Below the pieces are notes generated by a model. It made no database searches. It was not told where the DNA came from and saw only the letters and a list, made by a program, of their open reading frames with translations. From the NCBI GenBank assembly GCA_963728115.1, contig CAVSJE010000004.1:30982-94981 (forward strand): DNA of 64,000 nucleotides. The letters are read 5' to 3'. Source of the DNA: an uncultured Gemmatimonadaceae bacterium. GTDB taxonomy: Bacteria; Gemmatimonadota; Gemmatimonadetes; Gemmatimonadales; Gemmatimonadaceae. The position numbers were made by a program, and so were the translations under genes. Shown piece after piece: positions 33,894-48,791 of this stretch (positions are counted from its first letter, which is position 1; each line of letters starts with the position of its first letter).

Positions 33894-34378
33894 AGCGAGG
33901 ATTCGGCTGGCCCCTGGGCGTCATCGCCATTCTCACGGCGACCGTCGGGCTCAACATCTGGGTGTTTCGCGTGGCCAACGACGACCCCTCGTTCGCCATC
34001 GAGCCCGACTACTACCAGAAGGCCGTGAACTGGGACAGCACGATGGCACAGCAGCGCGAGAATCTGGCCCTCGGGTGGCACCTCGCCCCGACACTCGGCG
34101 CGTTCACGCCGCACGATGGCGCCCGGCTGCAGGTAACGCTCACCGACGCGTCGGGGGCGGCGATCGGTGACGCGACGGTGAAGGTCGCCGCGTTCTTCAA
34201 CGCGCGCGCCAACGACATCATCGACACGACGCTGCACCGGGACTCCGCCGGATACGTCGCCACGCTCCCCGTCACGCGCGGCGGGGTGTGGGAACTGCAA
34301 TTCGACGTGCGGCGCGGGACCACGCGCTTCACCGCGACGTCCCGCATCGAAGCCGTTCCGGCCGGCCCCGGCACGTGA
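33890..34378 (+). CDS. FixH/CcoH-like protein
   Basis: 162 aa with an N-terminal TM helix and the sequence PSFAIEPDYYQKAVNWD. Confidence 0.72.
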   Translation: MKRGFGWPLGVIAILTATVGLNIWVFRVANDDPSFAIEPDYYQKAVNWDSTMAQQRENLALGWHLAPTLGAFTPHDGARLQVTLTDASGAAIGDATVKVAAFFNARANDIIDTTLHRDSAGYVATLPVTRGGVWELQFDVRRGTTRFTATSRIEAVPAGPGT

Positions 34379-35097: not shown

Positions 35098-37549
35098 GCC
35101 CACCGCATTCGCCGCCGGCGCGATGCCGGGAGCGCGCACGCGCGCCGGCGTCCACTGCACCCACTGCGGCCTCGTCGTCCCGAGCGGGCTCGTCGTCGAG
35201 GGCGCCGATCGGCAGTTCTGCTGCACGGGATGCCGGTGCGCCTTCGAGATTCTGCACGACCATGGCCTCGATCAGTACTACCGGCTCGGCGAGCTGCGCG
35301 AAGCCGCGGTAACCCCGACCGGGCGAACGTACGAGGAGTTCGACCACGACGCCTTCCAGGCGCTGTACGTACGCGGATTGCCGAACGGACTCGCCCAGGT
35401 GGAGCTGTATCTCGAGGGCGTGCACTGCGCATCGTGCGTGTGGTTGGTAGAGCGCGTGCCGCTGCTGCTGCCGGGCGTGGCGGCGGCGGAGTTGGAGATC
35501 CGACGGTCACTGGCCCGCGTGATCTGGGATCCCGCCGCCGTGCCCCTGTCGCAGGTTGCCCGGATGCTCGACTCGCTGGGCTATCCGCCGCACCCCTTCC
35601 GGGGCGTGCAGCGCGACGCGATCCGGCGCCGCGAGGACCGAGCCATGCTCGTGCGGATCGGCGTCGCCGGCGCCATCGCCGGCAACATCATGCTGGCCGC
35701 GTTCGCGCTGTATGCGGGATGGCTGGGCGGCATGGAACACGAGTGGCAGCAATTCTTCCGCTGGCTCAGCCTGCTGCTGGTCACGCCCGCCCTACTCTGG
35801 CCCGGCCGCGTGTTCTTCTCCGGTGCCTGGGCAGCCCTCCGGACGCGGACCCTTCATATGGATGTGCCCGTGGCTCTCGGGCTCGCCGTCGGATATCTCC
35901 AGGGCGCCGTGAACACGGTGCGCGACTCCGGCCCGATCTACTTCGACGGCCTCGCGCTGCTGATCTTTCTCCTGCTCGTGGGGCGCTACCTGCAGCAGCG
36001 CGGCCAGCGGGCGGCCGCGGACGGCGCCGAGCTGCTCTACTCGCTCACCCCGTCCACGGCGCGTGTAGCCGACGACGCCGGGCAGGTGCGCGAGATCCCC
36101 TCCGACGCCCTCCTCCCCGGCATGGTGCTCGACGTACGGCCGGGCGAGACGCTGGCCGCCGACGGCGTGGTCACGCGCGGCGAATCGCGGATCGACACCG
36201 CCCTGCTCACCGGCGAATCGCGTCCCGTCCCCGCCGCCGAAGGCAGCGCGGTGTTCGCCGGCACGGTGAACCTCTCGTCACCGCTGCGCGTGCGGGTCGA
36301 ACAGGCGGGTGAGTCGAGCCGCGTGGCCAGAATCCTCCAACAGGTCGAAGAGAGCGCACGTCGACGCGCTCCGGTGGTGGAGACGGCCAACCGGATGGCG
36401 GCCTGGTTCGTGGGTGCGGTCCTGCTCCTGGCGGGAATCACCTTTGTGATCTGGGAGATCCGCGATCCCTCCCGGGCCGTGGACAACGCCATCTCGCTGC
36501 TCATCGTCACCTGTCCCTGCGCGCTGGCGCTGTCCACCCCGCTCGCGGTCTCGATGGCCATCGGACGGGCGGCGCGCCGGGGGATCTTCATCAAGGGCGG
36601 CGACGTCGTGGAGACGCTCGCCCGCCCCGGCACGATGCTGCTCGACAAGACGGGGACGATCACGGAGGGAAGCACGGCGCTGGTCCACTGGGAGGGGCCG
36701 GATTGGGTGAGGCCTCTCGTCCTCGGTCTGGAAGCCGAGTCGACGCACCCGCTGGCGGCGGGCTTTCGCGCCGCGTGGGCCGAACTGCCGGCGCCGCCGG
36801 CGGAGCGGTCGACGCACGTCGTGGGCGGCGGCGTGGAGGGAGTCGTACGGGGCCACGCCGTCGTGATCGGCTCGCCGGCGTTCGTCCGCTCGCGCGCGAC
36901 GCGCGCCGAGCTGACCGACGCGCTGGCCGGCACGCTCGATCCCTCGCTCACGCCGGTGCTCGTGGCGGTCGATGACCGGGTGTGCGCGGCCGCCGGCTTC
37001 GGCGATCCGCTGCGCCCCGACGCCGGCGAGGCCGTGCGGGCACTTCGCGCGCGTGGCTGGGCCGTGGGCGTGCTGTCGGGTGACGCGCCGACGGTGGTCG
37101 CGCGCATCGGTCGCGAACTCGGGCTGCCCGCCGACGCCTGCGTCGGCGGCGCGTCGCCGGAGGACAAGATGCGGGCGGTGGAAGCGGCGCGGGGACCGCG
37201 TCCGGTCGTCATGGTCGGCGACGGCGTGAACGACGCGGCGGCGATCGCCGCCGCGTCGGTGGGAATCGGCGTGCACGGCGGGGCCGAAACCTGCCTCGCG
37301 ACGGCCGATGTGTATCTCACGCAGCCGGGGCTGGCCCCCCTGGTCCACCTGATCCGCGGCGCGGAGCGGACGATGCACGTAATCCGCCGCAATCTGGCCT
37401 TTTCCCTCGCCTACAACCTGGTCGGCGCCGGGCTGGCCATGGCTGGCGCTATCAATCCGCTGGTCGCAGCTTTGATGATGCCGGCGAGTTCGCTCACCGT
37501 GGTCGTCAGTTCGTGGCGGACGCGTACGTTTGACGGAGGCGGGCATTGA
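35084..37549 (+). CDS. ccoI: Copper-translocating P1B-type ATPase CcoI/FixI
   Basis: 821 aa. It has an N-terminal CTHCG...FCCTGC motif and the CPC, DKTGT and GDGVNDA motifs. Confidence 0.93.
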   Translation: MSLAEPTAFAAGAMPGARTRAGVHCTHCGLVVPSGLVVEGADRQFCCTGCRCAFEILHDHGLDQYYRLGELREAAVTPTGRTYEEFDHDAFQALYVRGLPNGLAQVELYLEGVHCASCVWLVERVPLLLPGVAAAELEIRRSLARVIWDPAAVPLSQVARMLDSLGYPPHPFRGVQRDAIRRREDRAMLVRIGVAGAIAGNIMLAAFALYAGWLGGMEHEWQQFFRWLSLLLVTPALLWPGRVFFSGAWAALRTRTLHMDVPVALGLAVGYLQGAVNTVRDSGPIYFDGLALLIFLLLVGRYLQQRGQRAAADGAELLYSLTPSTARVADDAGQVREIPSDALLPGMVLDVRPGETLAADGVVTRGESRIDTALLTGESRPVPAAEGSAVFAGTVNLSSPLRVRVEQAGESSRVARILQQVEESARRRAPVVETANRMAAWFVGAVLLLAGITFVIWEIRDPSRAVDNAISLLIVTCPCALALSTPLAVSMAIGRAARRGIFIKGGDVVETLARPGTMLLDKTGTITEGSTALVHWEGPDWVRPLVLGLEAESTHPLAAGFRAAWAELPAPPAERSTHVVGGGVEGVVRGHAVVIGSPAFVRSRATRAELTDALAGTLDPSLTPVLVAVDDRVCAAAGFGDPLRPDAGEAVRALRARGWAVGVLSGDAPTVVARIGRELGLPADACVGGASPEDKMRAVEAARGPRPVVMVGDGVNDAAAIAAASVGIGVHGGAETCLATADVYLTQPGLAPLVHLIRGAERTMHVIRRNLAFSLAYNLVGAGLAMAGAINPLVAALMMPASSLTVVVSSWRTRTFDGGGH

Positions 37550-37725
37550 GTGTCATCTACATCGTGGTGCCGCTGGCGCTGCTCGTCGTTGGTGCGGCGG
37601 TGGCGGCGTTCGTGTGGGCCGCGAACCGCGGCCAGTTCGACGATCTCGAGACGCCGGCGGTGCGAATGCTGCACGACGATGAACAACGAACGCCCCCGGC
37701 GACGAAACGTGGACCCCGGGATTGA
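37546..37725 (+). CDS. ccoS: cbb3 oxidase maturation protein CcoS/FixS (59 aa, TTG start)
   Basis: It is not in the ORF track. My own translation from the TTG at 37546 is (M)SVIYIVVPLALLVVGAAVAAFVWAANRGQFDDLETPAVRMLHDD..., which is the canonical CcoS signature. It overlaps the ccoI stop as TTGA. Confidence 0.8.
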   Translation: MSVIYIVVPLALLVVGAAVAAFVWAANRGQFDDLETPAVRMLHDDEQRTPPATKRGPRD

Positions 37726-37944
37726 CCCCGGTGGCAGTGCCGGCGGGCCCTACACAGATTCAGGTGTTTCCCGACACCTGGGTGTCGGGGGACGGATAGG
37801 TTCAGCCGCGACTACTAGGAAGCACCGCCGGACCGGGCGCCAGTCGCCGGCGCCGGCGATGCGCGAGACGCCGGAGCATTCGGCGCATGCAAACTCATTC
37901 CGGATCGGAACGATGAGATCTCGCATGGAAGGAGCGCTACGCTC

Positions 37945-38412
37945 GTGACCTCTCCGGCGGCGGACCCCGACAACGGCGGCGTGTCATGGGAGGCCGGTTT
38001 CAGCGAGCACCTGCTCGGCGGCATCATCATCCTGATGGTGGTGGCCGCGGCGCTGATCGGCTTCCTGTACCTGCTGCCCCCCGAGCGCCTCCAGCTTCCC
38101 GAACTGCAACCCGCGTTCGTCGTCGCCCCGGTCGCGCAATTCCCGGTGGGTGCGAGTCGCGTGGTGGACTGGGGGGAACAGGTCATTCTCGTCGTCCGGA
38201 CGGGCGAACAGGCGTACTCCGGCGTGCAGGGCGCTTCCCCCGCCGACGGATGCATCCTGGACTGGGATCCGACCTCGCTCCGCGTGCTCTCGCCGTGCAG
38301 CTACATCGTCTATGATCTGCAGGGCAACGTCGTCCGCGGATTGACCACGGTGCCGCTCCAGCGGTACCCGGTGTTCGTGCGCGATTCCGTCGTCTACGTG
38401 GGGAGGCCATAG
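37945..38412 (+). CDS. Rieske-fold protein with degenerate cluster-binding boxes (no Cys/His ligands)
   Basis: The GTG start is preceded by GGAAGGAG. It has one N-terminal TM helix. The C-terminal region aligns to the Rieske boxes as SPADGC-x12-SPCSYIVYDLQGNVVRG. Confidence 0.7.
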   Translation: MTSPAADPDNGGVSWEAGFSEHLLGGIIILMVVAAALIGFLYLLPPERLQLPELQPAFVVAPVAQFPVGASRVVDWGEQVILVVRTGEQAYSGVQGASPADGCILDWDPTSLRVLSPCSYIVYDLQGNVVRGLTTVPLQRYPVFVRDSVVYVGRP

Positions 38413-38413
38413 C

Positions 38414-39703
38414 ATGCTCGGTCGTGCATGGAAGGCCGTGATGGCCTGGGCCGGGCGGTTCTGGGACGATCTCAAGTCGAGCACCGACGCCAGCCTGCTC
38501 TCGTTCCTGCGATTCCTGGGGCTGCTGTACGGGCGCATCGACACCCGGCTGCCCATCGATCAGGCGTTCCGCAAGGCGCTGAACCACAGGATGTCGCGGC
38601 ACACCGGCTGGCGGCAGGCCTTCGGCGGCATCACCTATCTGCTGTTCATGGTGCTCGTCGTCACCGGTGTGTTGCTCTCGTTCTACTATCGGCCGTCGGC
38701 CGAGGAGGCGTACCAGAGCATCCAGCACGTCGTCACCGGGGTGAGCCTCGGCTGGCTCATGCGCGACATGCACGTCTGGGCGGCCAACCTCGTGGTCCTC
38801 GCGGCGCTGGTGCACATGGGGCGCGTGTTCTTCGATGCCGCCTACAAGCCGCCCCGCGAAACGAACTGGCTCATCGGACTGCTCCTGCTGTTCGTGATCT
38901 TCGCCTTCGGCGCCACGGGCTACCTCCTGCCGTGGGATCAGTGGTCCTACTGGACGGTGACGGAGGGGTTGAGCATCCTCGGCCACGTGCCGCTCGTCGG
39001 CGGTGCGCTGGTGGAGATCCTGCGCGGCGATCCCCTGGTTACCGGGGCCACGCTGAGCCGGTTCTTCGCCCTCCACGTGATCGTACTGCCGTGGCTCGCC
39101 CTGGGGTTGTTGGTGCTGCACTTCGCGCTCGTACGGAAGCACGGCATCGCCCCGCCCCGGGATCTGCCGGCCGACGAGGCCGGCGCGCCCGATGCATCGG
39201 GCGTTCCGTTCTTCCCCAACCATTTCCTCCGTTCGCTCATCGTGGGCGTGCTCGTGTTGACGGTGGTGATCACGGCCGCGGCGCTCTATCCCCGCGATCT
39301 GGCGGCGCCGGCAAGCGCCGCCCAACCGCCGGAGACGCTGCGTTCCACCTGGATCGTGGCCGACGTGTCGCGGGCTCTGTTCTACTACCTGGGGGCCTGG
39401 GGCTTCATCGGCTTCGTCGCCCTGGGAGCGGTCATGGTGCTGCTGCCGCTCTTCGATCGATCGGCGGAACGCCGGCTGCGAAAGCGTCCGTTGGTGGCCG
39501 GGCTCGGCATCGTCTTCTTCGCGGGATTCTTCGTCGCGTGGGCCGCCGGATGGCAACTCCGGTCGGTGCCGGTCGCGACCTCCGGCGAATTGGCGCCGGT
39601 CATCCAGCCCCTGTCGGCGCCGGGGCCCACGCTTCCGCGCTTCACGCCACTGGCTCCGACCGCGCAACCGGCGGGCACGACGAGCACGAGGGTTCCGAAA
39701 TGA
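38414..39703 (+). CDS. Cytochrome b, b6-type, fused with a subunit-IV-like C-terminal half
   Basis: 429 aa. It has His pairs H-x13-H (RDMHVWAANLVVLAALVHMGR) and H-x14-H (LHVIVLPWLALGLLVLHF), and the motif YLLPWDQWSYW. Confidence 0.9.
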   Translation: MLGRAWKAVMAWAGRFWDDLKSSTDASLLSFLRFLGLLYGRIDTRLPIDQAFRKALNHRMSRHTGWRQAFGGITYLLFMVLVVTGVLLSFYYRPSAEEAYQSIQHVVTGVSLGWLMRDMHVWAANLVVLAALVHMGRVFFDAAYKPPRETNWLIGLLLLFVIFAFGATGYLLPWDQWSYWTVTEGLSILGHVPLVGGALVEILRGDPLVTGATLSRFFALHVIVLPWLALGLLVLHFALVRKHGIAPPRDLPADEAGAPDASGVPFFPNHFLRSLIVGVLVLTVVITAAALYPRDLAAPASAAQPPETLRSTWIVADVSRALFYYLGAWGFIGFVALGAVMVLLPLFDRSAERRLRKRPLVAGLGIVFFAGFFVAWAAGWQLRSVPVATSGELAPVIQPLSAPGPTLPRFTPLAPTAQPAGTTSTRVPK

Positions 39704-40962
39704 GATCCGCCGCGATCAGCACCCTGTTGGCGGTCGCCGTCCTCGCCGTCCATCCCGCTCCGACGCGGGCCATGCAGGCGCCGGTGGGCCAGAGTACGAC
39801 GGGTGTCGATTCGACCAACGGCTGCCTGGCCTGCCACGCCGCCCAGCGCGAAGCGGCGACCACGGGTGTGCACTCGCAGCACGGCATCCGCTGCGTCGAC
39901 TGCCATGGCGGCGACGCGTCGGTCCGCACGCTGCCCGGCGCCCATCGCGGTGGATTCATCGGCACGCCGGACAAGCTCCAGACGGCGCAGCTCTGCGGCT
40001 CCTGCCACTCCGACCCGAACCGGATGCGCGAGTACGGCCTGCCCACCGGCCAACTCTCGCAATTCCGGACGAGCCGGCACGGCCAGCTCCTGTTCGGCCA
40101 GCACAACACCGACGCGCCGACCTGCACCGACTGCCACGGCACGCACATCATCTATCCCCCGTACGACGCCCGGAGCCGGGTGTACCCGACCAACATCCCG
40201 AGTACCTGTGCGCACTGCCATTCGGATACCAAGCTGATGGCGAAGTACCATCTGCGCACCGACCAACTGGACCAGTTCCGCAACAGTGCGCACGGGGTGG
40301 CGCTCTTCCAGAAACAGAACTTCGCGGCGCCCACGTGCATCGGCTGCCACGGCGCGCACTCCGCGCTGCCACCCAAAGCCACCGAGGTCGCCAGCGTCTG
40401 CGGCCAGTGCCATGCGCTCGTCGATCAGGCGTTCGAGGCGGGGCCGCACGGCACCGCCGCCCGATCCGGCAAGCTTCACGGCTGTCTGGGATGCCACACC
40501 AATCACAGCACCGAGCGCGTGGCCATCGACAAGATCGGGGCGACGTGCGACCAGTGCCACGCGGCGAACACCCGCCTGCATCAGATGGGCGTCGACCTGC
40601 AGCGGAGCGTCTCGCAGGCGAGCGACGACATGCAGTCGGCGCGGCGAGCGGTGGACGAGATGGCCGTAGCCGGCAAGCAGGTGGGCTACTACCGGTTCCG
40701 GTTGCAGTCCGCCCTCACGAGCTACGAACAGATCGCCCAGGCGCAGCACAGTCTCGACCTCGAGCGGGTGGATGCCCTGGCGCGCAAGGTGCGCTCCATT
40801 TCCGTGGACCTGAACGACGCCGCGAACACCACGCGCGACGACCGCTGGGAGCACAAGCTGTTGCTGGTGCCGGTGTGGTTCCTCTCGCTGTCGGCCGTGG
40901 TGCTGGCGTGGCTGGCCCTGCGGGCGCTGCGCAGAGCGGGCGACACCCGCCGGGACGGGTAG
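39700..40962 (+). CDS. 9-haem c-type cytochrome with signal peptide and C-terminal TM anchor
   Basis: The ATG overlaps the cytochrome b stop as ATGA. It has nine CxxCH motifs and a C-terminal helix LLLVPVWFLSLSAVVLAWLAL. Confidence 0.88.
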   Translation: MRSAAISTLLAVAVLAVHPAPTRAMQAPVGQSTTGVDSTNGCLACHAAQREAATTGVHSQHGIRCVDCHGGDASVRTLPGAHRGGFIGTPDKLQTAQLCGSCHSDPNRMREYGLPTGQLSQFRTSRHGQLLFGQHNTDAPTCTDCHGTHIIYPPYDARSRVYPTNIPSTCAHCHSDTKLMAKYHLRTDQLDQFRNSAHGVALFQKQNFAAPTCIGCHGAHSALPPKATEVASVCGQCHALVDQAFEAGPHGTAARSGKLHGCLGCHTNHSTERVAIDKIGATCDQCHAANTRLHQMGVDLQRSVSQASDDMQSARRAVDEMAVAGKQVGYYRFRLQSALTSYEQIAQAQHSLDLERVDALARKVRSISVDLNDAANTTRDDRWEHKLLLVPVWFLSLSAVVLAWLALRALRRAGDTRRDG

Positions 40963-40966
40963 GGTC

Positions 40967-42997
40967 ATGTCTCCCGCCGTCCGCCGGCGCCTCTCCCGGG
41001 TCGCCCGCGTCCTGATCCCGGTTGGCATCCTTTCCGTCATCCTCGTGACCGTGGGGACGGTGACGTTCGTGCAGGTGTCCAGCCAGCCCTGGTTCTGCGG
41101 CAGCTGCCACATCATGCAGCCGTACTACAAGTCGTGGAGCACGTCCACCCACCGGAACGTGGCCTGCATCAAGTGCCACATCGCCCCCGGCGTGAAGGCC
41201 GAGGCGATGAAGAAGTTCCAGGCCGCCAACATGGTAGTGAAGGACTTCACCGGGCAGACGAAGACCCGCCCCTGGGCCGAGATCGAGGACGCCTCCTGCC
41301 TCCGCTCCGGGTGCCACACCGACCGGCTGATCGAGGGCCGCGTCGACTTCAAGGGCGTGAAGTTCGACCACACCAAGCACCTGGGCGAGGTGCGCGAAGG
41401 CATGCAGCTGCACTGCACGAGCTGCCACTCGCAGATCGTGCAGGGCACGCACATCGCCGTCACCGAGGGCACCTGCTTCCTCTGCCACTTCAAGGGGCAG
41501 CCGGCGGGGCGGCCGCTCGGCGGCTGCATCGGCTGTCACCCGTCGCCGCCCACGGTCACGTCGCCGGAAGGCTACGTCATCGACCACACCCAGTACGTCA
41601 AGAACCGGATCGACTGTCTCTCCTGCCACAACCAGGTGACCCAGGGCACCGGCGCCGCGGACCAGGCCCGGTGCGTGAGCTGCCACAACGAACCGGCCCG
41701 CCTGGCGCAGTTCAACGATCCGACGATGCTCCACAAGGTGCACGTCTCCACGCACAACATCGCGTGCATCCAGTGCCATACGTCGCTCGATCACCGCATC
41801 GTGGCGCTGACGACGAACGTCGAGCTGGATTGCAAGAGCTGCCACACCGCCGTCCACAAGGACGAGCAGAAGCTCTACGCCGGCATCGGCGGGCACGGGG
41901 TGCAGCAGACGCCGAGCGCGATGTACATGGCACGGGTGGCCTGCGTGGCCTGTCACAACCAGGCGTCGAGGCTGCCGGGGCACGACACCGTGCACGTCAC
42001 CAGCGACGCGTCGTGCATGTCGTGCCACGGCATCAAGTACGCCAACGTGCTGCCGGGGTGGGAACAGCAGATGGAGCGCAAGGTGCGGTTGGTGGGACCG
42101 GTCGTGGAGGCCGCCCAGAGCGCCGCCGCCACCCTGCCCCTGCGCAGCCGCAACCGCGCCGACAGCCTGCTCGGCATGGCGCGCGAGAACGTGGAATTCG
42201 TCCGCGCCGGCAAGGGCGCGCACAACATCGTGTACGCCGACCAGCTGCTCCGCGCCTCGGTGAGCCTGGTGCGGCAGGCCGTGAAGGACGCCGGGGTGCC
42301 CTATCGCATGCCGGCCGTGGATCTCGGACCGCCGGTGAGCGAGAACCAGTGCCTCCAGTGCCACCTCGGCGTGGAGCAGCAGAAGGCCACCTTCGACGGG
42401 CGCAATTTCGACCACACCGCGCACGTCCTCCAGGGCGGACTGCAGTGCAGCACCTGCCACACGCCGTTCGCGCAGCACGGCGGGATCACCCTCACGTCCG
42501 CCGCCAGCTGCGACGGCTGCCACCACCCGACGGTGCAGCCGGTGGCCAACTGCGCGCGCTGCCACGCCGGCCCCGGCGGCGCGCCGACCGACACCTTCCA
42601 CCTCGCCAAGGGTGACTTCTCGCACGGCGCCCACGTGGCCGCCAACGTTGACTGCAAGGCGTGCCACACGGCGCCGGTGATGAGCGCGCGGACCCTCGAC
42701 TGCGACAACTGCCACGAACAACACCATCAGCCGCAGACCGCGTGTCTGAGTTGTCACCGCGGCGGCGTGCTCGCCAAGCACAAGGTCACGGATCACGTGG
42801 CGTGCAACGCCTGTCACAAAACGGTGCCCGACCTCGGCCACTGGAGCCGCCAGGTCTGCACTGCCTGTCACGCCACGCGCACCGATCACTTCCCGGGCAA
42901 GGCGTGCGAGACCTGCCACCGGGTCCCGGCCATGGGCACCGTGCGTTCCGCGAAGCCGGCTCCGGGGAAAGCGGTCCAGACGCCCCACCCCATGTGA
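40967..42997 (+). CDS. NapC/NirT-type membrane-anchored cytochrome fused to a long multihaem extension (21 CxxCH plus 1 CxxxxCH)
   Basis: The N-terminal TM helix and WFCGSCHIM...W..S.H....CIKCH match the NapC/NirT/NrfH signature. The protein is 676 aa. Confidence 0.9.
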   Translation: MSPAVRRRLSRVARVLIPVGILSVILVTVGTVTFVQVSSQPWFCGSCHIMQPYYKSWSTSTHRNVACIKCHIAPGVKAEAMKKFQAANMVVKDFTGQTKTRPWAEIEDASCLRSGCHTDRLIEGRVDFKGVKFDHTKHLGEVREGMQLHCTSCHSQIVQGTHIAVTEGTCFLCHFKGQPAGRPLGGCIGCHPSPPTVTSPEGYVIDHTQYVKNRIDCLSCHNQVTQGTGAADQARCVSCHNEPARLAQFNDPTMLHKVHVSTHNIACIQCHTSLDHRIVALTTNVELDCKSCHTAVHKDEQKLYAGIGGHGVQQTPSAMYMARVACVACHNQASRLPGHDTVHVTSDASCMSCHGIKYANVLPGWEQQMERKVRLVGPVVEAAQSAAATLPLRSRNRADSLLGMARENVEFVRAGKGAHNIVYADQLLRASVSLVRQAVKDAGVPYRMPAVDLGPPVSENQCLQCHLGVEQQKATFDGRNFDHTAHVLQGGLQCSTCHTPFAQHGGITLTSAASCDGCHHPTVQPVANCARCHAGPGGAPTDTFHLAKGDFSHGAHVAANVDCKACHTAPVMSARTLDCDNCHEQHHQPQTACLSCHRGGVLAKHKVTDHVACNACHKTVPDLGHWSRQVCTACHATRTDHFPGKACETCHRVPAMGTVRSAKPAPGKAVQTPHPM

Positions 42998-43085
42998 CGC
43001 GCCCGCGGCGGCGCACGGCCTCCCCCAGGGCGCCGCGCGCCGGCCGCGACAGCGGCCGTGAGTCGAGGGAAGGAGATTGCGCGCA

Positions 43086-44843
43086 GTGAGTCAGCCGGAC
43101 GTCGTTCTCATCCATCCGCCGAGCATCTTCGACTTTCGCGACCGCACGATCTTCTACGGCCCGATCAGCGACGTCGTGCCGTCATCGCCGATCTTCGAGA
43201 TGTACCCCATCGGGTTCGCGACCCTGGCGGCCTACCTCCGCCGCCACGGGTACCGCACGCGGATCGTGAATCTGGCGCTCCGCATGATGCGGAGCCGGCG
43301 GTTCGACGTCGAGCGGTACCTCGCGCGGTTCCACCCCACGCTGTTCGGCATCGACCTCCACTGGCTGCCGCATGCCCACGGCGGCCCCGAGATCGCCAAA
43401 CTGCTCAAGCGCCTGCACCCCGACGTTCCGATCGTCTTCGGCGGCATCTCGTCCAGCTACTTTCACGAAGAACTGATCCAGGATCCGGCCGTCGACTTCG
43501 TGCTGCGGGGCAGCGTCACCGAACCCTGCCTCGTGGCGCTGCTGCGCGAGTTGGAAGGGGAACGGCGGTTCGAGCGGGTGCCGAACCTCACGTGGAAGGA
43601 CCGCGGACAGGTGCGGGTGAATCCAGCCTCGTTCGCCCCGCCCACGCTCGACCCGTACGACCTCGACGCCGGGATGATCATCGGTTCGGTGGTGGGGCAT
43701 CTCGATTTCTGGACGAGCATTCCCTTCCACGCCTGGTGGCGGCACCCGATCACCGCAGTGCTCACCGTGCGCGGGTGCGCGCGCGGGTGCGTCACCTGTG
43801 GCGCGTCCAACGGCGCCTTCAAGCGCTTCATGCAGGCGCACCACCCGCTGCTCCGCGGGCCCGAGGCGATCGCCTCGCAGATTCGCCAGTTCGCCTCCTT
43901 CACCCGCGCGCCGGTCTTCCTGGTGGGCGACATCAACGACGGCGGACCGGCGTATGCCCACGCCGTGGTCGACGCGATCGGCCGGCAACCCGTCTCCAAT
44001 CGCATCATCTTCGAGTTCTTCGAGCCGCCGCCGGCCGATCTCCTGCAGCGCATCGACGCGTCGATTCCCCACTGGGGGGCCGAACTCTCGCCTGAGAGCC
44101 ACGACGAGGCGGTGCGGGCCCGATTGGGCAAGGCCGACTACACGAACGCCGAACTCGAGGCGGGCATCGCCCGCATGCTGGCCCTCCGCTGCGAGAACCT
44201 GGACATGTTCTTCATGATCGGGCTGCCGGGCCAGACCTACGACAACGTGATGCAGATGACCGACGCCATCGAAGGGCTCTTCGAGCGCTTCGACCGGCGC
44301 CTCTCGGCGTTCATCACGCCCATGGGACCGTTCATCGACCCCGGCAGCGAGGGCTTCGAGCACGCCGAGGCCCAGGGCTACCGGCTGCGCGCCCACACGC
44401 TGGCCGAACATCGCGCCCTGCTCGAGGACGGCCGCGACTGGGAGTCGTTCCTCAACTACTCCACCGACGCGATGTCGCGTGCCGAAATCGTGGACGCCAC
44501 CTATGACGGCGCCGAACGCTTGAACGCGCTCAAGCAGCGGTACGGACGCATCGACGCCGCGCAGGCCAACGCGGTGGCGGCCCGGATGCAGGGCGCCCGC
44601 GAGCTGCGGCGGCGGTTCGGGGAGGCCGGCGGCCGTGCGCTCGATCCCGCGCTGCACCGCGAACTGCTGGGCGACGTCCGCGCCTATTCCGAGGACACGG
44701 TGAACGCCAAGGCCGAGTTGTTTCCGCCCGGGGCGTTCATCCGCAACTTCCGGCTGGGGGGGATTCTCCGCCTGCTCGCCCGCGAGGCGTGGCTGAACGT
44801 CGGGCGCCGCCGGCGGCCGGTGCCCGCCGTCCCCGCAGACTGA
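43086..44843 (+). CDS. B12-binding-domain radical SAM protein
   Basis: The GTG at 43086 lies 10 nt after GGGAAGGAG. The N-terminus resembles a B12-binding Rossmann fold (VVLIHPPS...IVFGGISSSYF). The radical SAM motif is CARGCVTC (Cx3Cx2C). Confidence 0.85.
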   Translation: MSQPDVVLIHPPSIFDFRDRTIFYGPISDVVPSSPIFEMYPIGFATLAAYLRRHGYRTRIVNLALRMMRSRRFDVERYLARFHPTLFGIDLHWLPHAHGGPEIAKLLKRLHPDVPIVFGGISSSYFHEELIQDPAVDFVLRGSVTEPCLVALLRELEGERRFERVPNLTWKDRGQVRVNPASFAPPTLDPYDLDAGMIIGSVVGHLDFWTSIPFHAWWRHPITAVLTVRGCARGCVTCGASNGAFKRFMQAHHPLLRGPEAIASQIRQFASFTRAPVFLVGDINDGGPAYAHAVVDAIGRQPVSNRIIFEFFEPPPADLLQRIDASIPHWGAELSPESHDEAVRARLGKADYTNAELEAGIARMLALRCENLDMFFMIGLPGQTYDNVMQMTDAIEGLFERFDRRLSAFITPMGPFIDPGSEGFEHAEAQGYRLRAHTLAEHRALLEDGRDWESFLNYSTDAMSRAEIVDATYDGAERLNALKQRYGRIDAAQANAVAARMQGARELRRRFGEAGGRALDPALHRELLGDVRAYSEDTVNAKAELFPPGAFIRNFRLGGILRLLAREAWLNVGRRRRPVPAVPAD

Positions 44844-44847
44844 CCGG

Positions 44848-46248
44848 CTACGGCCGGCGCCCGAGGATCCGGGCCCGAACCTCGGCCGGCGACATCTGCA
44901 GATGACAGGGCGCGCACTCGCGGCTCGGGTGGTGGTCCCGGCGGTCGGCGTGGCAGGTCAGGCAGAACGTGCGGTCCCCGGTGAGCAGGGCGAGCGTCTC
45001 GGTGGCGTGGCACTCGGCGCAGGCGAAGTGGTCCGCGGACTTGTGGACCGCCGCGACCGTCGTCCCGTGGCACCCCGTGCAGTCGCGGGCATCGCGGTGG
45101 TGCGACGCGTGACACGTCGCGCACGCGGCCACCGTCCCGATGGCCGACGGCGTGGTGTGGCAATCCGCGCAGGCTACGGCGGCATGCGCGTCGTGCCGGA
45201 AAACGACGGCGCGGCTCGCCGGCGCGCCGGCGGCTTTCAGACGCAGTGGCAGCGTCACCGGTTCCGGACGGCCCGCCAGCACGGCCGGTGGATGGCAGGT
45301 GGCGCAGGCCAGCGTCGAGGTCACGTGGTGGCAGCTGTTGCAGGCGGCGGCAGTCACCGTGGTCTTCCCGTGGCCCAAGTCGACGTTGTGGCCGCCGGCC
45401 GCAAAGTACGTGGCCGCGGAATGGCATCCGCTGCAGGCGAGCCCGGCGTTCACCACGTGGCCGCCGTGATTGAACGGCTGGCCGAACGCGGTGTCGCGCC
45501 CCGCTTCGATGCCATAGTGACAATAGGCGCACACGTTGGACGCGGGATCGGGGCCGAGCGCCGGAACGGGCGGCGCCTGTTCCCCGGCGCTTCGGTACGC
45601 GCCGGCGGCCGAACCGAGCGCCGAGCGCAGCAACGCATCGGCCCCCGCCACGTTGTGCAGGGCCACCCCCCTGCGCACCAGCCCCAGCGCCGTCGCGGCG
45701 TCGCGCAGTTGCGCCTGCGGCTGCGAACGGCCGGCGAGCGCCGCATCGCCGTTGGCGGCGGCTACGTACGCCTCCACGGCTCGCATGCGCCAATCCAGTC
45801 CCGCCGCCCAGCGTGGCAGCATCGAGTCGAAGCGAGCGCCGTGGCACGCCGTGCAGGCACGGCCGATGGCAGCCAGCCGGGGGGCGCCCGGCCGGGCAGC
45901 GAGCGCCGAATCGGTATGGCAGCCCCGGCAATCGACGCGGGCCAGGGACATGCGGTCGGCGCGCACCGCCGGGTCGGCGCGATTCCCATCGTACAGGATC
46001 TTCACGGCGTCGTGTGCCTGCGCGTGGCAGGTGACGCAGCGGGCCGCCTTTTCCCGCGCCGTGCCGACCATCGTGGCGTGGACCGCCGGATGGCAACTCG
46101 TGCAGTCGAGACGGCCGCTATCGCTCGACGCCTGCCCCTGTTGGGCGGGCGCCGGCGGTGGTTGGCGGTTCGGCGACCAGCCGACGAGTGATCCCATGGC
46201 CACGACGGCCAGGAACCCCTCGACGAGTCGGCGCCGAACCTCAGTCAT
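44848..46248 (-). CDS. 14-haem c-type cytochrome with N-terminal signal/anchor
   Basis: 466 aa with 14 CxxCH motifs. It is colinear with the C-terminal two-thirds of the 21-haem protein. Confidence 0.88.
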   Translation of the reverse strand: MTEVRRRLVEGFLAVVAMGSLVGWSPNRQPPPAPAQQGQASSDSGRLDCTSCHPAVHATMVGTAREKAARCVTCHAQAHDAVKILYDGNRADPAVRADRMSLARVDCRGCHTDSALAARPGAPRLAAIGRACTACHGARFDSMLPRWAAGLDWRMRAVEAYVAAANGDAALAGRSQPQAQLRDAATALGLVRRGVALHNVAGADALLRSALGSAAGAYRSAGEQAPPVPALGPDPASNVCAYCHYGIEAGRDTAFGQPFNHGGHVVNAGLACSGCHSAATYFAAGGHNVDLGHGKTTVTAAACNSCHHVTSTLACATCHPPAVLAGRPEPVTLPLRLKAAGAPASRAVVFRHDAHAAVACADCHTTPSAIGTVAACATCHASHHRDARDCTGCHGTTVAAVHKSADHFACAECHATETLALLTGDRTFCLTCHADRRDHHPSRECAPCHLQMSPAEVRARILGRRP

Positions 46249-46252: not shown

Positions 46253-47101
46253 TCAGCTCAGCAGGGCGTAGATCACGAGCAGGACGAGAAACACGCCGAC
46301 CGCGAGCGAGGCAAAGCCGAGCCCCATGGACCAGAGATACGTGGCGCGTGAGGGTTCCGGCGCCTCGAGCTTGGCGAGACTGCCGTCCTGTACTTCACGC
46401 TCGTACTCCAGCGGATGCTCCTCCTCGAAGTACTCGGCGCGCGCCCGCCCCGTGAAGATCACGAGATCGATGGGGAACTTGCCGGGGCGCAGATGGACGT
46501 TGAAGAAGTGGATGGTGAAGATGAACCCGAGCGCGAGCAGCGCCTCGTCGCCGTGCACGATGGTGGCCACGTTGAACAACCAGCCGGGCAGGAAGCGCGC
46601 GAAGAAGGTCGGGAACCAGAGCAGGAGGCCGGAGCCGCCGATGATCGCCACCCCCCAGAACACCGCCCAGTAGTCGAACTTCTCCATGTAGCTGAAGCGG
46701 TCGAACTTCGGCTGCGGGCCGAGCCCCAGGAACCACTTGAACATGCCCATGACGTCGCGGATGTCCTTGGGTTGGGGCACCATGCTCCGCGGCCCCCAGA
46801 AGATCGACAGCTTGTGGTCGGTCCTGATCAGCTTGCGGACCACCGATACCAGGTGGATGAAGAAGTATCCGAAGGTGATCGCGGCGCACACGCGGTGGAT
46901 GAAGGCCGCCGACGCGGGGCCGCCGAGCACCTTCATGAGCGGCGTGGCCCACCCGGCGTACGCGAAGCGCAGCGGCACGCCGGTGATGACGAGGCCGAGG
47001 AACGAGATGATCACGAGCGCGTGGGTGGTACGCTCGATGGGACCGAAGCGGGTGATGTACGGACCCTTGCCCTGGTCCGAAACGGCCATGGGCTTTTTCA
47101 T
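46253..47101 (-). CDS. FdnI/HydC-type (PF01292-like) membrane b-type cytochrome
   Basis: 282 aa with RFGPIERTTHALVIISFLGLVITG, and conserved His residues in helices (FIHRV, IVHGDEA, FTIHFFNVH). It overlaps the upstream cytochrome stop as ATGA. Confidence 0.8.
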   Translation of the reverse strand: MKKPMAVSDQGKGPYITRFGPIERTTHALVIISFLGLVITGVPLRFAYAGWATPLMKVLGGPASAAFIHRVCAAITFGYFFIHLVSVVRKLIRTDHKLSIFWGPRSMVPQPKDIRDVMGMFKWFLGLGPQPKFDRFSYMEKFDYWAVFWGVAIIGGSGLLLWFPTFFARFLPGWLFNVATIVHGDEALLALGFIFTIHFFNVHLRPGKFPIDLVIFTGRARAEYFEEEHPLEYEREVQDGSLAKLEAPEPSRATYLWSMGLGFASLAVGVFLVLLVIYALLS

Positions 47102-48387
47102 GGGTGGTCCTCCTGCGATCCGGGTCCGGCCTGGCCCGGCGGGGGCGCGTCATGGGGGCCGCGCCCGCGCACACGGTCCAGAATCAGGCGTCCCAGCCAG
47201 AGCAGGGTGTGCGCGCCGAAGAAAACGAATACGCTCACCAGCAGCGTGGTCATGAACAGCCAGGTCCAGAACAGGAGCGGGAACCCGGTCCGGTCCTTCG
47301 GATCGCCGTGGGGCTGGTACTTCACGAAGTTCGCGTTGGCGTTCGGATGACAGGCGCCGCAGGTCGCCACCAGATTCGCCGGATTGGTGGACGACTTGGG
47401 ATCGGTCACGGGCCGCATGTCGTGCGCCGTGTGGCAGTCGCTGCACTTTGCCGTGAGTCCGAACCCGAGTTCGGTGACCTGGCCGTGATACGTCTCGAAG
47501 TACGTGCCGTATTCCTTCTCATGGCACGATCCGCACTCCTGCACCACGCCACGGAACCAGACGGGGTCCGACGCCGGCACCAGATGGTGCGCCGGATGGC
47601 AGTCCACGCACACCGGCGCGCTGTGCCCGGTGGGGGTGGTGGCGCCCGTGCGCCGCGCCTGTCCGTGCGACGACTGGTTGAAGGTCTCGAGCACGCCGGC
47701 GTGGCACTTGCCGCAGGTCTCGGCGATGTTGTCGCGGTTGATCGAGGACTGCGCGGAATCCGGCGGCAGGATGAGGTGCGCGCCGTGGCAGTCGTTGCAG
47801 GTGGCCGATACAACCAGCCCCGCCTTCGTCATCGCCATGCCGTGCACGGTCTTGTAGTACGCATTGACGGCGGTGCGCGCCGCCGTGTCCTTGGGCTGAT
47901 TGAAGTAGGTGCCGACGATCTGAGGATTGGCGTGACAGCTGCCGCACAATCCCGCCACGTTCAATGGATACGTCGGCGAACGCGGGTCGGTGGCCGCAAG
48001 CACGTGATGGGTGCCGTGGCAGGTGGCACACGTGGGCGCGTTGCCCCGTGTCACCGCGTCGAGCGCATGGATCGAGCGCGCCCAGTCGTCGCCTTCCTTC
48101 TGGTGGCAGCTCTGGCAGGGCACGGCCACCACGGTCGTCACGCGGTGCGGATACCCGTTCGCGAAATCCGGGTGACAGCTCGCGCAACTGAGCCCCGCGT
48201 GCTTCGAATCGCGGAGCACGGAGTCGGGCACGAACAGTACGGAGTCGGGCTTGACCGAACGGCCCTTGCCGATGAGGAATTCCCGGTTCGCGTGACAGTT
48301 GCGGCACGCGACCACGCCGTCCTGCCGCTGGGCCGCGGCCGGCAATGCCAGCGTGAGGCCGAGGGCGGCGGCGGCGATCGCGCGCAT
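47098..48387 (-). CDS. 11-haem c-type cytochrome with signal peptide and C-terminal TM anchor
   Basis: The ATG at 48387 gives MRAIAAAALGLTLALPAAAQ. It has 11 CxxCH motifs and a C-terminal helix LLFWTWLFMTTLLVSVFVFFGA. Confidence 0.88.
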   Translation of the reverse strand: MRAIAAAALGLTLALPAAAQRQDGVVACRNCHANREFLIGKGRSVKPDSVLFVPDSVLRDSKHAGLSCASCHPDFANGYPHRVTTVVAVPCQSCHQKEGDDWARSIHALDAVTRGNAPTCATCHGTHHVLAATDPRSPTYPLNVAGLCGSCHANPQIVGTYFNQPKDTAARTAVNAYYKTVHGMAMTKAGLVVSATCNDCHGAHLILPPDSAQSSINRDNIAETCGKCHAGVLETFNQSSHGQARRTGATTPTGHSAPVCVDCHPAHHLVPASDPVWFRGVVQECGSCHEKEYGTYFETYHGQVTELGFGLTAKCSDCHTAHDMRPVTDPKSSTNPANLVATCGACHPNANANFVKYQPHGDPKDRTGFPLLFWTWLFMTTLLVSVFVFFGAHTLLWLGRLILDRVRGRGPHDAPPPGQAGPGSQEDHP

Positions 48388-48591
48388 CGCGCCCGCTACT
48401 CTCCGCTCCGGCCAATGACGAGGGCGTGTCCTACTGCGATCGGACCCGCCCTCCGGTTGCAATCGTTTCACGGTGACCTGTCCGCTGTACGTTCGCGTTT
48501 GGCTCGCCTGGATTCTCGAAGCACCTGCTCGTTCATCAGTTTCGGCCGTCCTGCAGCCACCGATAAGGAACGGCCGCGGGTGCATTGCAAC

Positions 48592-48628
48592 TAGCGGAAT
48601 TGCCCTGAGCCCACGTAGGGGAATTGCC
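48592..48628. promoter_or_regulatory. Two direct repeats TAGSGGAATTGCC spaced 24 nt apart, in the divergent promoter region
   Basis: The copies are at 48592-48604 (TAGCGGAATTGCC) and 48616-48628 (TAGGGGAATTGCC). They lie between the cytochrome operon and the sigma factor gene. Confidence 0.3.
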
Positions 48629-48791
48629 GCGTGCGCCGAGCCCCGGCTTCGCAGGGCGCCGCGCGCGGCGCCCGCCACAGCCGATGGGCCAAGGGAAAGC
48701 CCTCACGAAGTATCAGGCTTCGGCTGATGCGGACGCCCACCCGCGAAGGGAAGATTGCGCACACCCCAAACGGACGTCGAAGGTGTGAGCC

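What the first reader, a model, noticed from the sequence alone, without database searches (positions are those of the whole stretch)
40967..42997. NapC/NirT-type quinol dehydrogenase head fused to a haem wire of about 17 additional haems
The first 180 or so residues have the NapC/NirT/NrfH/CymA architecture: one TM helix, WFCGSCH, W..S.H and four CxxCH motifs. The protein then continues for about 500 residues with 17 more CxxCH motifs and a helical insert of about 70 residues (aa 355-430). Described NapC-family proteins carry 4-5 haems, and Geobacter ImcH carries about 7. A 21-haem member would be exceptional.
Basis: partly seen in the sequence, partly recalled or inferred. Interest (0 to 1): 0.6.

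Follow-up and report, generated by a model that had tools for sequence, protein, structure and literature searches.

The report
22-haem NrfH-headed membrane cytochrome
This is a real, intact gene for a membrane-anchored protein with 22 haem sites behind an NrfH-type quinol-site head; it belongs to a large, multi-phylum, unstudied family almost always encoded beside a cytochrome b complex, so it probably carries respiratory electrons away from the membrane.

Summary
ORF 40967-42997 (+), 676 aa, has 21 CxxCH motifs plus an overlooked, invariant CX4CH, so 22 haem sites. An assembly artefact is excluded. 116 of the 120 closest homologues (53-92% identity) have exactly 21 CxxCH, and all 44 cysteines are invariant.

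The protein has three parts:
- An NrfH-like head: one TM helix, CxxCHxM, and a Lys equivalent to NrfH K82. NrfH is the only significant PDB fold match.
- An OcwA/NrfA-type five-haem block with a three-helix bundle.
- A c7-type haem polymer tail like Geobacter GSU1996.

"Exceptional" is true only against characterised NapC/NirT proteins. The family has 391 clusters at 50% identity (E<=1e-30), at least 594 species genomes and several phyla. Haem-site counts fall in classes of 12, 14, 17-18, 22 and 27-31.

The protein is not a stand-alone quinol dehydrogenase. In 72-80 of 86 loci it is the last gene of a Rieske(-like)/cytochrome b/9-haem/22-haem unit. Here the Rieske-like protein matches no Rieske model, and a canonical Rieske/cyt b pair lies elsewhere in the genome.

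Best reading: it is the electron-output, or electron-input, wire of an accessory bc-like menaquinol complex. Its function has not been tested.

The parts
40967..42997 (+). Gene for the 676-aa, 22-haem-site membrane cytochrome
   Evidence: ORF and GC3 0.94. Motif count. Full-length homologues at 53-92% identity.
41003..41080 (+). Single N-terminal transmembrane helix (residues ~13-38), preceded by the basic stretch RRRLSR
   Evidence: Read directly from the sequence. AlphaFold models show helix 3-38 at pLDDT >90. It aligns to the NrfH TM helix.
40967..41560 (+). NrfH-like head (residues 1-198). Includes haem 1 (C44GSCHIM50), haem 2 (C67), K83, the CX4CH site (111-117), C150, C170 and C187
   Evidence: PF03264 above its cut-off. 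NrfH 2j7a_C E 1e-6 to 1e-13. Foldseek matches NrfH only: E 9.6e-4, probability 1.00, TM 0.61 over the whole chain.
41096..41116 (+). CxxCHxM motif (C44-G-S-C-H-I-M50), the NrfH-type haem 1 site
   Evidence: Aligns residue for residue with NrfH C43..H47..M49. M50 is invariant in the close family and >=90% conserved in the wide family.
41213..41215 (+). Lys83, equivalent to NrfH Lys82 at the menaquinol site
   Evidence: Profile alignment to 2j7a_C. Invariant in 120 homologues. The role of K82 is taken from PMC4683180 and Rodrigues et al. 2008.
41297..41317 (+).
   Evidence: Invariant. 22 of 357 relatives have CxxCH at this position, and it pairs with C462xxCH in the internal repeat.
41618..42292 (+). 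OcwA/NrfA-type module (residues 218-442): haems at C236, C267, C289, C326 and C350, plus a three-helix bundle
   Evidence: Family profile against OcwA 6i5b_A: E 1.4e-27, with residues 218-442 aligned to 261-500. Foldseek gives secondary matches to NrfA, ONR and MccA.
42047..42289 (+). Three-helix bundle (residues 361-441) carrying the invariant G-A-H419-N420 motif
   Evidence: AlphaFold helices at pLDDT 95-98. H419 and N420 are invariant in 135 diverse sequences. They align to GVHN in the OcwA helices.
42332..42931 (+). c7-type haem polymer tail (residues 456-655) with ten CxxCH motifs
   Evidence: Profile against GSU1996 3ov0_A: E 8e-28. HmcA, OmhA and MtrF-type hits follow. Pfam Cytochrome_C7 and c3 repeats. 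Residues 456-543 duplicate residues 105-198.
39700..40962 (+). Constant partner: a 9-haem cytochrome with a signal peptide and a C-terminal TM anchor. Its stop codon lies 4 nt before the target ATG
   Evidence: 9 CxxCH motifs. Lies immediately upstream of the target homologue in 86 of 86 loci.
38414..39703 (+). Cytochrome b (fused b6 and subunit IV type, 429 aa) of the same operon
   Evidence: PF00033 E 5e-48. Upstream in 80 of 86 loci.
37945..38412 (+). Rieske-like first gene of the operon, without a recognisable [2Fe-2S] site
   Evidence: No Pfam hit. Not found by PF00355 in the genome search. Read directly, the sequence has GCILDW and SPCSY where the CxH and CxxH boxes should be. Distant relatives have a true PF00355 Rieske at this position.
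44848..46248 (-). 14-haem paralogue that matches residues 264-661 of the target and lacks the NrfH head
   Evidence: BLASTP: 33% identity, E 4e-50. It is the only paralogue in the genome.
46253..48678 (-). Associated module: an FdnI/HydC-type cytochrome b (46253-47101) and an 11-haem cytochrome (47098-48678)
   Evidence: Pfam. In most of the more distant Gemmatimonadota loci this pair lies directly downstream of the target on the same strand.

Best explanation
The gene encodes a periplasm-facing, 22-haem c-type cytochrome held in the inner membrane by one N-terminal helix.

It has three modules:
1. An NrfH-type head, whose haem 1 (CxxCHxM, Lys83) sits at the membrane surface where NrfH binds menaquinol.
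2. An OcwA/NrfA-type five-haem block, stiffened by a three-helix bundle that may mediate dimerisation.
3. A tail of c7-type domains like the GSU1996 "nanowire" cytochrome.

It works as a subunit of an accessory bc-like complex made of a Rieske-like protein, cytochrome b, a C-terminally anchored 9-haem cytochrome and this protein. Electrons taken from menaquinol at the membrane run along the roughly 31 c-haems of the two cytochromes. They pass into the periplasm to soluble or outer-membrane multihaem cytochromes. The flow could also run the other way.

Shown: the haem-site count, the domain homologies, the conservation and the operon partnership.
Inferred: that the head itself oxidises menaquinol, the direction of electron flow, the physical complex, and the final acceptor.
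For: - Motifs and conservation: 21 CxxCH plus CX4CH. All 44 Cys and 45 His are invariant in 120 homologues, which gives enough ligands for 22 haems: 22 motif His, 23 other His, and M50, M319 and M572.
- Head: PF03264. NrfH matches by sequence, including CxxCHxM and K82, and by fold.
- Middle block: OcwA E 1.4e-27, including the GVHN helix motif. Tail: GSU1996 E 8e-28.
- Model: pLDDT 84.7, pTM 0.68.
- Operon: 4-nt and overlapping gene junctions. The 9-haem gene lies upstream in 86 of 86 loci, cytochrome b in 80 and the Rieske-like gene in 72. The same order, with a true Rieske and a split b6/subunit IV, is seen in marine and Armatimonadota relatives at 35-40% identity.
- Accessory status: a canonical Rieske/cyt b pair lies elsewhere in the genome. 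Only 39 of 301 Gemmatimonadota species have the gene.
- Possible sinks in the same window: a 16-haem cytochrome, a 532-aa protein with no Pfam match, two 8-haem OcwA-like cytochromes, a [NiFe] hydrogenase and a cbb3 oxidase.
Against: - No experiment or expression data exists for any family member that I could find.
- Sequence similarity to NrfH is significant only for residues ~12-87. The Pfam match covers half the model.
- NrfH Asp89 has no clear equivalent. The nearby invariant polar residue is N88, and the wider family has Q there.
- A complex that already has cytochrome b would not obviously need a second quinol site.
- The outer-membrane partner is not adjacent and is not conserved with the gene.
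Confidence: 0.7

Rival explanations
1. The protein is a pure electron acceptor, the cytochrome c1/f substitute of the bc-like complex. The NrfH-like head then serves only as a membrane anchor and docking piece. Quinol is oxidised solely at cytochrome b.
For: Distant relatives keep a true Rieske protein and b6/subunit IV in the same operon. That arrangement fits the idea that multihaem cytochromes replace c1 in anaerobic bc complexes (Dibrova et al. 2013, as cited in PMC5317091). No clear equivalent of NrfH Asp89 was found.
Against: CxxCHxM and the K82-equivalent Lys are conserved across the family at 27-90% identity. That is hard to explain for a mere anchor. In this lineage the Rieske-like protein matches no Rieske model, so the usual exit route from the Qo site is missing. 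The 9-haem partner, with its C-terminal TM helix, looks more like c1 or f in topology.
Confidence: 0.3
2. The chain runs inwards. It collects electrons from extracellular Fe(II), from periplasmic hydrogenase or from other donors. It then delivers them to the quinone pool or to the neighbouring cbb3 oxidase. NapC/NirT proteins such as ImoA are proposed to do this in iron oxidisers.
For: In this genus the operon lies directly after the cbb3 oxidase and FixGHIS genes, and near FeoAB and a [NiFe] hydrogenase. [quoted passage not shown]
Against: The cbb3/FixG neighbourhood is seen in only 8-9 of 86 loci, so it is not a conserved link. Nothing in the sequence sets the direction of flow.
Confidence: 0.25
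3. The protein is an enzyme. Its OcwA/NrfA-type block keeps an open-coordination haem at C236, the equivalent of OcwA haem 5 and NrfA haem 1. That haem would reduce a small substrate such as nitrite or hydroxylamine, or a bound metal.
For: C236 aligns with OcwA haem 5, and H297 aligns with the first His of the OcwA HH380/381 distal motif (PMC6703420). OcwA has weak nitrite and hydroxylamine activity.
Against: There is no CxxCK motif. The HH motif reads HK here. The family adds the invariant H256 and H259, which OcwA lacks. With these, the invariant ligands suffice to make all six haems of this block six-coordinate. The block also sits in the middle of a longer chain.
Confidence: 0.1
4. The ORF is an assembly or annotation artefact that joins two genes.
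For: None was found.
Against: The reading frame is collinear and of the same length in 86 loci from independent assemblies, some on contigs of 0.4-1.9 Mb. 116 of 120 homologues have exactly 21 CxxCH. GC3 is uniform at 0.94.
Confidence: 0.01

Closest known systems
NrfH of Desulfovibrio vulgaris (PDB 2J7A/2VR0) and the wider NapC/NirT/CymA family (PF03264)
   Same: Single N-terminal TM helix. The first haem motif is CxxCHxM directly after the helix. The second haem lies 23 residues later. There is a Lys equivalent to K82 on the following amphipathic helix. The whole NrfH fold superposes on residues ~1-160 (TM 0.61).
   Different: NrfH has 4 haems in ~150 aa and docks to NrfA. This protein continues for ~500 residues and 18 more haem sites. 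Its third site is CX4CH. It falls far below the NrfH equivalog cut-off. No Asp89 equivalent was identified. It is encoded with cytochrome b, not with a periplasmic reductase.
OcwA of Thermincola potens (PDB 6I5B) and the NrfA/ONR/MccA C-terminal module
   Same: Residues 218-442 align with OcwA 261-500. That covers five haem motifs, the PSxM(Y/F) Met and the three-helix bundle with the GxHN motif.
   Different: OcwA is a 9-haem cell-surface terminal reductase of a Gram-positive bacterium and has two open-coordination haems. Here the block is internal to a 22-haem chain. The c554-like N-terminal half is absent, and the HH distal motif reads HK.
GSU1996 dodecahaem cytochrome of Geobacter sulfurreducens (PDB 3OV0) and HmcA-type c3/c7 polymers
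   Same: The tail is built from repeated c7-type units (F-x-H-x-x-H ... CxxCH). Profile E-value 8e-28.
   Different: GSU1996 is a soluble periplasmic protein made only of c7 domains. Here the polymer is the C-terminal third of a membrane-anchored composite.
Geobacter inner-membrane quinol:cytochrome c modules (ImcH, CbcL, Cbc3/CbcVWX)
   Same: They work alike: a quinone-linked membrane module that feeds multihaem cytochromes for extracellular or periplasmic electron transfer. ImcH also has a NapC/NirT-like part. Cbc3 pairs a b-type cytochrome with a multihaem c.
   Different: ImcH has three TM helices and 6-10 haems (PMC6295460). CbcL fuses a HydC/FdnI-type b domain to 9 haems. No sequence-level membership in any of these was detected. 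The role of Cbc3 is itself unknown (PMC13591261).
Non-canonical Rieske/cytochrome b complexes with multihaem c subunits (anammox R/b complexes, Methanoperedens, as reviewed by ten Brink et al. 2013 and Dibrova et al. 2013)
   Same: The operon logic is the same: Rieske, cytochrome b(6), then multihaem cytochromes in place of c1 or f.
   Different: Those described carry 5-8-haem subunits and a functional Rieske protein. Here the c subunits carry 9 and 22 haems, one of them has an NrfH head, and in Gemmatimonadota the Rieske-like protein has no recognisable cluster site.

Membership tests
NapC/NirT cytochrome c family (PF03264) | Match to the family model above the curated cut-off | tested here: met
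   38.8 bits against a cut-off of 24.1, E 1e-9. Only model positions 8-106 of 174 are covered.
NapC/NirT cytochrome c family (PF03264) | One N-terminal TM helix followed at once by the first haem motif | tested here: met
   Hydrophobic residues 13-38, then C44xxCH. AlphaFold helix 3-38. Aligns to the NrfH helix.
NapC/NirT cytochrome c family (PF03264) | Tetrahaem core of about 150-200 residues | tested here: inconclusive
   The whole NrfH chain superposes in 146-161 alignment columns. This implies that sites 44, 67, 111 (CX4CH) and 150 form the core. A weak HMM alignment (i-E 39) instead pairs NrfH haems 3 and 4 with C170 and C187.
NrfH subfamily (TIGR03153 equivalog) | Score above the equivalog cut-off | tested here: not met
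   47.8 bits against a cut-off of 134.2. It is not an NrfH orthologue.
NrfH subfamily | CxxCHxM haem 1 motif (Met49 ligand) | tested here: met
   C44GSCHIM50 aligns to NrfH C43..M49. M50 is invariant in the close family and nearly invariant in the wide family.
NrfH subfamily | Conserved Lys82 at the menaquinol site | tested here: met
   K83 aligns to K82 and is invariant in 120 homologues.
NrfH subfamily | Asp89 distal to haem 1 | tested here: inconclusive
   No Asp is conserved at +6 to +10 from K83. N88 is invariant here and the wide family has Q. The alignment does not reach this far.
NrfH subfamily | Genetic and physical partnership with NrfA | tested here: not met
   The neighbours are cytochrome b, a Rieske-like protein and a 9-haem cytochrome. 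No nrfA is in the operon.
OcwA/NrfA-type C-terminal module | Five haem motifs followed by three long helices | tested here: met
   Profile against 6i5b_A: E 1.4e-27 over residues 218-442. Helices 361-387, 392-415 and 421-441.
OcwA/NrfA-type C-terminal module | Open-coordination catalytic haem (CxxCK, or an HH distal motif) | tested here: inconclusive
   There is no CxxCK. H297-K298 aligns to OcwA HH380/381. Ligand counting suggests the haem is closed. No coordinates were available.
c7-type multidomain cytochromes (GSU1996-like) | Tandem c7 domains with FxHxxH...CxxCH units | tested here: met
   3ov0_A E 8e-28 with three matched stretches. PF14522 E 1e-20 with six stretches.
c-type subunit of a Rieske/cytochrome b complex | Conserved co-operonic arrangement with Rieske and cytochrome b genes | tested here: met
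   Cytochrome b is upstream in 80 of 86 loci and the Rieske(-like) gene in 72 of 86. The order is the same in other phyla.
c-type subunit of a Rieske/cytochrome b complex | Physical association and electron transfer within the complex | not testable with these tools
   This needs purification or a multimer structure.
ImcH / CbcL (Geobacter) | Three TM helices with ~7 haems (ImcH), or a fused HydC/FdnI b domain (CbcL) | tested here: not met
   The protein has a single TM helix and no b-type domain. No matching NCBIfam model was found.

The most novel reading that the evidence does not exclude
In the Gemmatimonadota version the Rieske subunit has lost its iron-sulfur cluster, and the NrfH-type head has taken over as the quinol-electron exit. 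That would make a hybrid bc/NrfH respiratory complex with no Fe-S centre. It would not run the textbook bifurcated Q cycle. It would inject electrons straight into a chain of about 31 haems, long enough to reach much of the way across the periplasm towards outer-membrane cytochromes.
Probability: 0.3. Interest if true: 0.8.

Novelty: new variant of a known kind. Interest (0 to 1): 0.55.

Why it matters
Characterised NapC/NirT quinol dehydrogenases stop at 4-5 haems and hand electrons to separate partners. This family welds the quinol-site head to a long built-in wire and ties it to a cytochrome b complex. It is common in uncultured soil, sediment and groundwater bacteria: Gemmatimonadota, Methylomirabilota, Eisenbacteria, Omnitrophota, Armatimonadota and others. 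Databases label it only "cytochrome c3 family" or "NapC/NirT family". If it exports or imports respiratory electrons, many MAG-based metabolic models are missing a route between the quinone pool and periplasmic or extracellular redox partners. It would also give a natural series of wires of graded length (12 to about 31 haems) for studying long-range electron transfer.

Tried and rejected
- Haem-to-haem distances: the AlphaFold coordinates are not exposed to the Python box, so no distances were computed.
- Literature: searches for this architecture or operon found surveys of CymA, CbcL and ImcH (PMC6295460), the Desulfuromonadia cytochromes (PMC11492766) and non-canonical Rieske/cyt b complexes (PMC4683180, PMC5317091). 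None describes this family.
- Promoter and terminator scan of 37400-45000: nothing above chance.
- The 9-haem partner has no PDB sequence relative.
- The 11-haem cytochrome shows no significant similarity to the target.
- ImcH, CbcL or TorC membership was rejected on topology and model scores.
- An artefactual fusion was rejected on cross-assembly conservation.
- An HMM pairing of NrfH haems 3 and 4 with C170 and C187 (i-E 39) was judged too weak against the structural superposition.
Full report
**1. Is it there?**

The window has an open frame at 40967-42997 (+) of 676 codons. Its third-position GC is 0.94, like the other real genes of this ~70% GC window.

It holds 21 CxxCH motifs, 44 Cys and 51 His. 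Shuffling the residues 2000 times gave a mean of 0.2 motifs and never more than 3.

Three results show that this is a real haem site:
- C111, C116 and H117 are invariant in every alignment made.
- At this position 335 relatives have CX4CH and 22 have an ordinary CxxCH, for example EDAACLRCH in P0065.
- Residues 105-198 are an internal duplicate of residues 456-543 (score 121, against 33 +/- 7 for shuffles). The duplicate pairs C111x4CH with C462xxCH, C150 with C494, C170 with C515 and C187 with C529.

The protein therefore has 22 haem-binding sites.

**2. Is it an artefact?**

No. The 120 best hits among 5.8 billion proteins are full-length (mostly 650-700 aa) at 53-92% identity, and 116 of them have exactly 21 CxxCH. 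All 44 Cys are invariant. So are 45 His: 22 in haem motifs and 23 elsewhere. M50, M319 and M572 are invariant or nearly so. That is enough axial ligands for 22 haems.

The 86 fetched loci come from many different MAG and metagenome assemblies, some on contigs of 0.4-1.9 Mb, and all show the same uninterrupted gene.

**3. Anatomy**

*Head (residues 1-~198).* It starts with a basic N-terminus, followed by a TM helix and then C44GSCHIM50.
- Pfam NapC/NirT (PF03264) scores above its cut-off but covers only the first half of the model.
- The best PDB sequence match is the quinol dehydrogenase NrfH (2j7a_C). E is 1e-6 for the single sequence, 1e-13 for the family profile and 1e-11 for a head-only profile.
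- That alignment puts C44/H48/M50 on NrfH C43/H47/M49 and K83 on NrfH K82. PMC4683180 names Lys82 and Asp89 as the conserved NrfH residues. That Met49 ligates haem 1 rests on my own knowledge of the NrfH structure papers (Rodrigues et al. 2006, 2008), which were not read here.
- No equivalent of NrfH Asp89 could be assigned. N88 is invariant in the close family and is Q in the wider family.
- The AlphaFold model of the whole protein has pLDDT 84.7 and pTM 0.68. The head-only model has pLDDT 70.8. Both give NrfH as the top Foldseek match in the PDB. The entire NrfH chain aligns in 146-161 columns, with TM 0.61-0.62 and probability 1.00. For the head it is the only match with E <= 0.001.
- Because the alignment has no room for a long insertion, the four NrfH haems most likely correspond to sites 44, 67, 111 (CX4CH) and 150. 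A weak HMM alignment that pairs NrfH haems 3 and 4 with C170 and C187 is not significant.
- The protein is far below the NrfH and TorC equivalog cut-offs. It belongs to the superfamily but is not an orthologue of any named member.

*Middle block (residues 218-442).* The family profile matches OcwA (6i5b_A), the nonahaem surface reductase of Thermincola potens, with E 1.4e-27.
- Sites C236, C267, C289, C326 and C350 align with OcwA haems 5-9.
- The PSxM(Y/F) methionine (M319) is shared.
- The three helices (361-387, 392-415 and 421-441, pLDDT 95-98) carry the invariant G-x-H419-N420, which aligns with GVHN in OcwA.
- OcwA haems 5-9 and its three-helix bundle are the NrfA-type module (PMC6703420; PMC9250108).

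Foldseek's secondary hits to NrfA, octahaem nitrite reductases and MccA agree.

C236 corresponds to the open-coordination haem 5 of OcwA. The OcwA HH380/381 distal motif reads H297-K298 here. The family adds the invariant H256 and H259, which OcwA lacks. Counting invariant ligands in this block (H256, H259, H276, H297, M319, H419) against its six haems (C217 to C350) suggests that all are six-coordinate. This is an inference, not a demonstration.

*Tail (residues ~456-655).* It has ten CxxCH motifs in c7-type units. The best profile hit is the Geobacter dodecahaem GSU1996 (3ov0_A, E 8e-28), followed by OmhA, HmcA, MtrF and ActA. The last ~25 residues are unconserved and of low confidence.

**4. 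The family**

An exhaustive HMMER pass over 1.84 billion representatives found 2350 hits: 1022 at E <= 1e-10 and 391 at E <= 1e-30.
- Nearly all full-length members keep the CxxCHxM head and the third-site motif.
- Sites 44 to 515 are invariant in a 35-sequence alignment at 27-71% identity to the target.
- Total haem-site numbers fall into classes of 12 (ending after the helices), 14, 17-18, 21-22 and 27-31. The close Gemmatimonadota homologues almost all have 22 (117 of the 120 counted). The 22 sites of this protein are neither unique nor the maximum. P0149, from an Armatimonadota MAG, has 30 CxxCH plus CX4CH.
- At least 594 species-representative genomes encode a relative. The 80 best are all Gemmatimonadota MAGs, none of them a named isolate.
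- Within the phylum, 39 of 301 species and 27 of 126 genera have it. In the window's own family only its own genus does.
- More distant members carry names from Eisenbacteria, Methylomirabilota/NC10, Omnitrophota, Firestonebacteria, Armatimonadota and proteobacterial MAGs. They are annotated only as "cytochrome c3 family protein" or "NapC/NirT family cytochrome c".

**5. Context**

The gene is the last of a tight four-gene unit:
- a Rieske-like protein (37945-38412);
- cytochrome b (38414-39703, PF00033);
- a 9-haem cytochrome with a signal peptide and a C-terminal TM helix (39700-40962, ATGA overlap with cytochrome b);
- the target, which starts 4 nt after the stop of the 9-haem gene.

Across the 86 loci, the 9-haem gene is immediately upstream in all 86. 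Cytochrome b is present in 80 and the Rieske-like gene in 72; the shortfalls are mostly at contig ends. Relatives at 35-40% identity from marine metagenomes and an Armatimonadota MAG keep the order Rieske (true PF00355), cytochrome b6, subunit IV, ~410-450-aa multihaem, NrfH-headed multihaem.

In many of the more distant Gemmatimonadota loci, an 11-haem cytochrome and an FdnI/HydC-type cytochrome b follow directly on the same strand. In this genus that pair lies on the opposite strand (46253-48678). It is joined there by a 14-haem paralogue of target residues 264-661 (33% identity, E 4e-50) and separated from the target by a B12-radical SAM gene.

The Rieske-like protein here gives no Pfam hit and is not found by PF00355 in the genome search. 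That search does find a true Rieske next to a second cytochrome b on another contig. The operon is therefore an accessory bc-like module, not the cell's only complex III.

The same window also holds the following:
- a [NiFe] hydrogenase with its maturation genes;
- a 16-haem cytochrome;
- a 532-aa protein with no Pfam match, possibly a barrel;
- two 8-haem cytochromes weakly related to OcwA;
- a cbb3 oxidase with FixGHIS;
- FeoAB.

**6. How it most likely works**

Shown: the topology signals, 22 conserved haem sites, the three homologous modules, and the conserved partnership with cytochrome b and the 9-haem cytochrome.

Inferred:
- The protein is a subunit of that complex.
- Its haem 1 lies at the membrane surface in an NrfH-type menaquinol pocket. 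Gemmatimonas is reported to use menaquinone-9; that is my own knowledge and was not tested here.
- Electrons pass along the haems of this protein and of the 9-haem partner to periplasmic or outer-membrane cytochromes.
- For scale, an OcwA dimer with 18 haems spans about 180 Å (PMC6703420). A 22-haem chain could therefore reach up to roughly 150-200 Å if extended.

The head keeps CxxCHxM and the K82-equivalent Lys across deep divergence, and the local Rieske protein has no cluster site. I therefore give about even odds that the head itself oxidises menaquinol. Otherwise it simply replaces cytochrome c1 or f as an acceptor. The direction of flow, the terminal partner and any catalytic role of the NrfA-like block remain open.

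**7. Comparison and novelty**

The protein works like the inner-membrane quinol:multihaem modules of metal reducers: CymA, ImcH, CbcL and Cbc3. It also works like the non-canonical Rieske/cyt b complexes with multihaem subunits.

It meets the Pfam definition of the NapC/NirT family and has the hallmark residues of NrfH haem 1. It fails the NrfH and TorC equivalog tests and lacks their partners.

CymA homologues have 4-5 haem motifs, ImcH 6-10 and CbcL 3-23 (PMC6295460). No paper found here describes an NrfH-headed protein with 12-31 haems encoded in a cytochrome b operon.

I rate it a new variant of a known kind. It is real, widespread, composite and unstudied.

Earlier notes from this scan on relatives in other genomes reach the same description. 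They are AI notes and I did not count them as evidence.

Noticed in passing
22 of 357 relatives have a canonical CxxCH at this position.
   Followed up: yes
window 44848-46248 (-): A 14-haem cytochrome that is a paralogue of target residues 264-661, covering part of the OcwA-like block, the helices and the c7 tail. It has no NrfH head. It is present in only 18 of 86 related loci.
   Followed up: partly
window 37945-38412; own genome contig C13:129125-130021: The first gene of the operon is Rieske-like but matches no Rieske model. It has GCILDW and SPCSY where the cluster-binding boxes should be. A canonical Rieske/cytochrome b pair lies on another contig. Distant relatives of the operon keep a true Rieske protein.
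   Followed up: partly
window 364-15227 (-): [NiFe] hydrogenase large and small subunits with HypF/HypB, next to a 16-haem cytochrome, a 532-aa protein with no Pfam match (possibly an outer-membrane barrel) and two 8-haem cytochromes with c554/MtrC-type hits and a weak OcwA match. This may be a hydrogen-linked porin-cytochrome cluster.
   Followed up: partly
P0159, P0170, P0201/P0244/P0259 (relatives): Some family members carry cytoplasmic N-terminal fusions ahead of the TM helix and NrfH head. These are a response-regulator receiver domain, a cNMP-binding domain, or about 880 residues with no Pfam match. They hint at redox-sensing uses of the same periplasmic module.
   Followed up: partly
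family-wide: Haem-site numbers fall into discrete classes (12, 14, 17-18, 22, 27-31). The wire seems to grow or shrink by whole c7-type units beyond a constant core of about 440-520 residues.
   Followed up: partly
window 43077-44843 (+): A B12-binding radical SAM gene lies between the two cytochrome operons. It is linked to the target in only 17 of 86 loci, mostly close relatives, so it is probably not a core partner.
   Followed up: partly
window 29152-37549 and 49899-52171: A cbb3 oxidase (fused CcoNO, CcoP) with FixGHIS lies directly upstream, and FeoAB plus a sigma-70 factor lie downstream. The cbb3 neighbourhood is shared by only 8-9 of 86 loci.
   Followed up: partly
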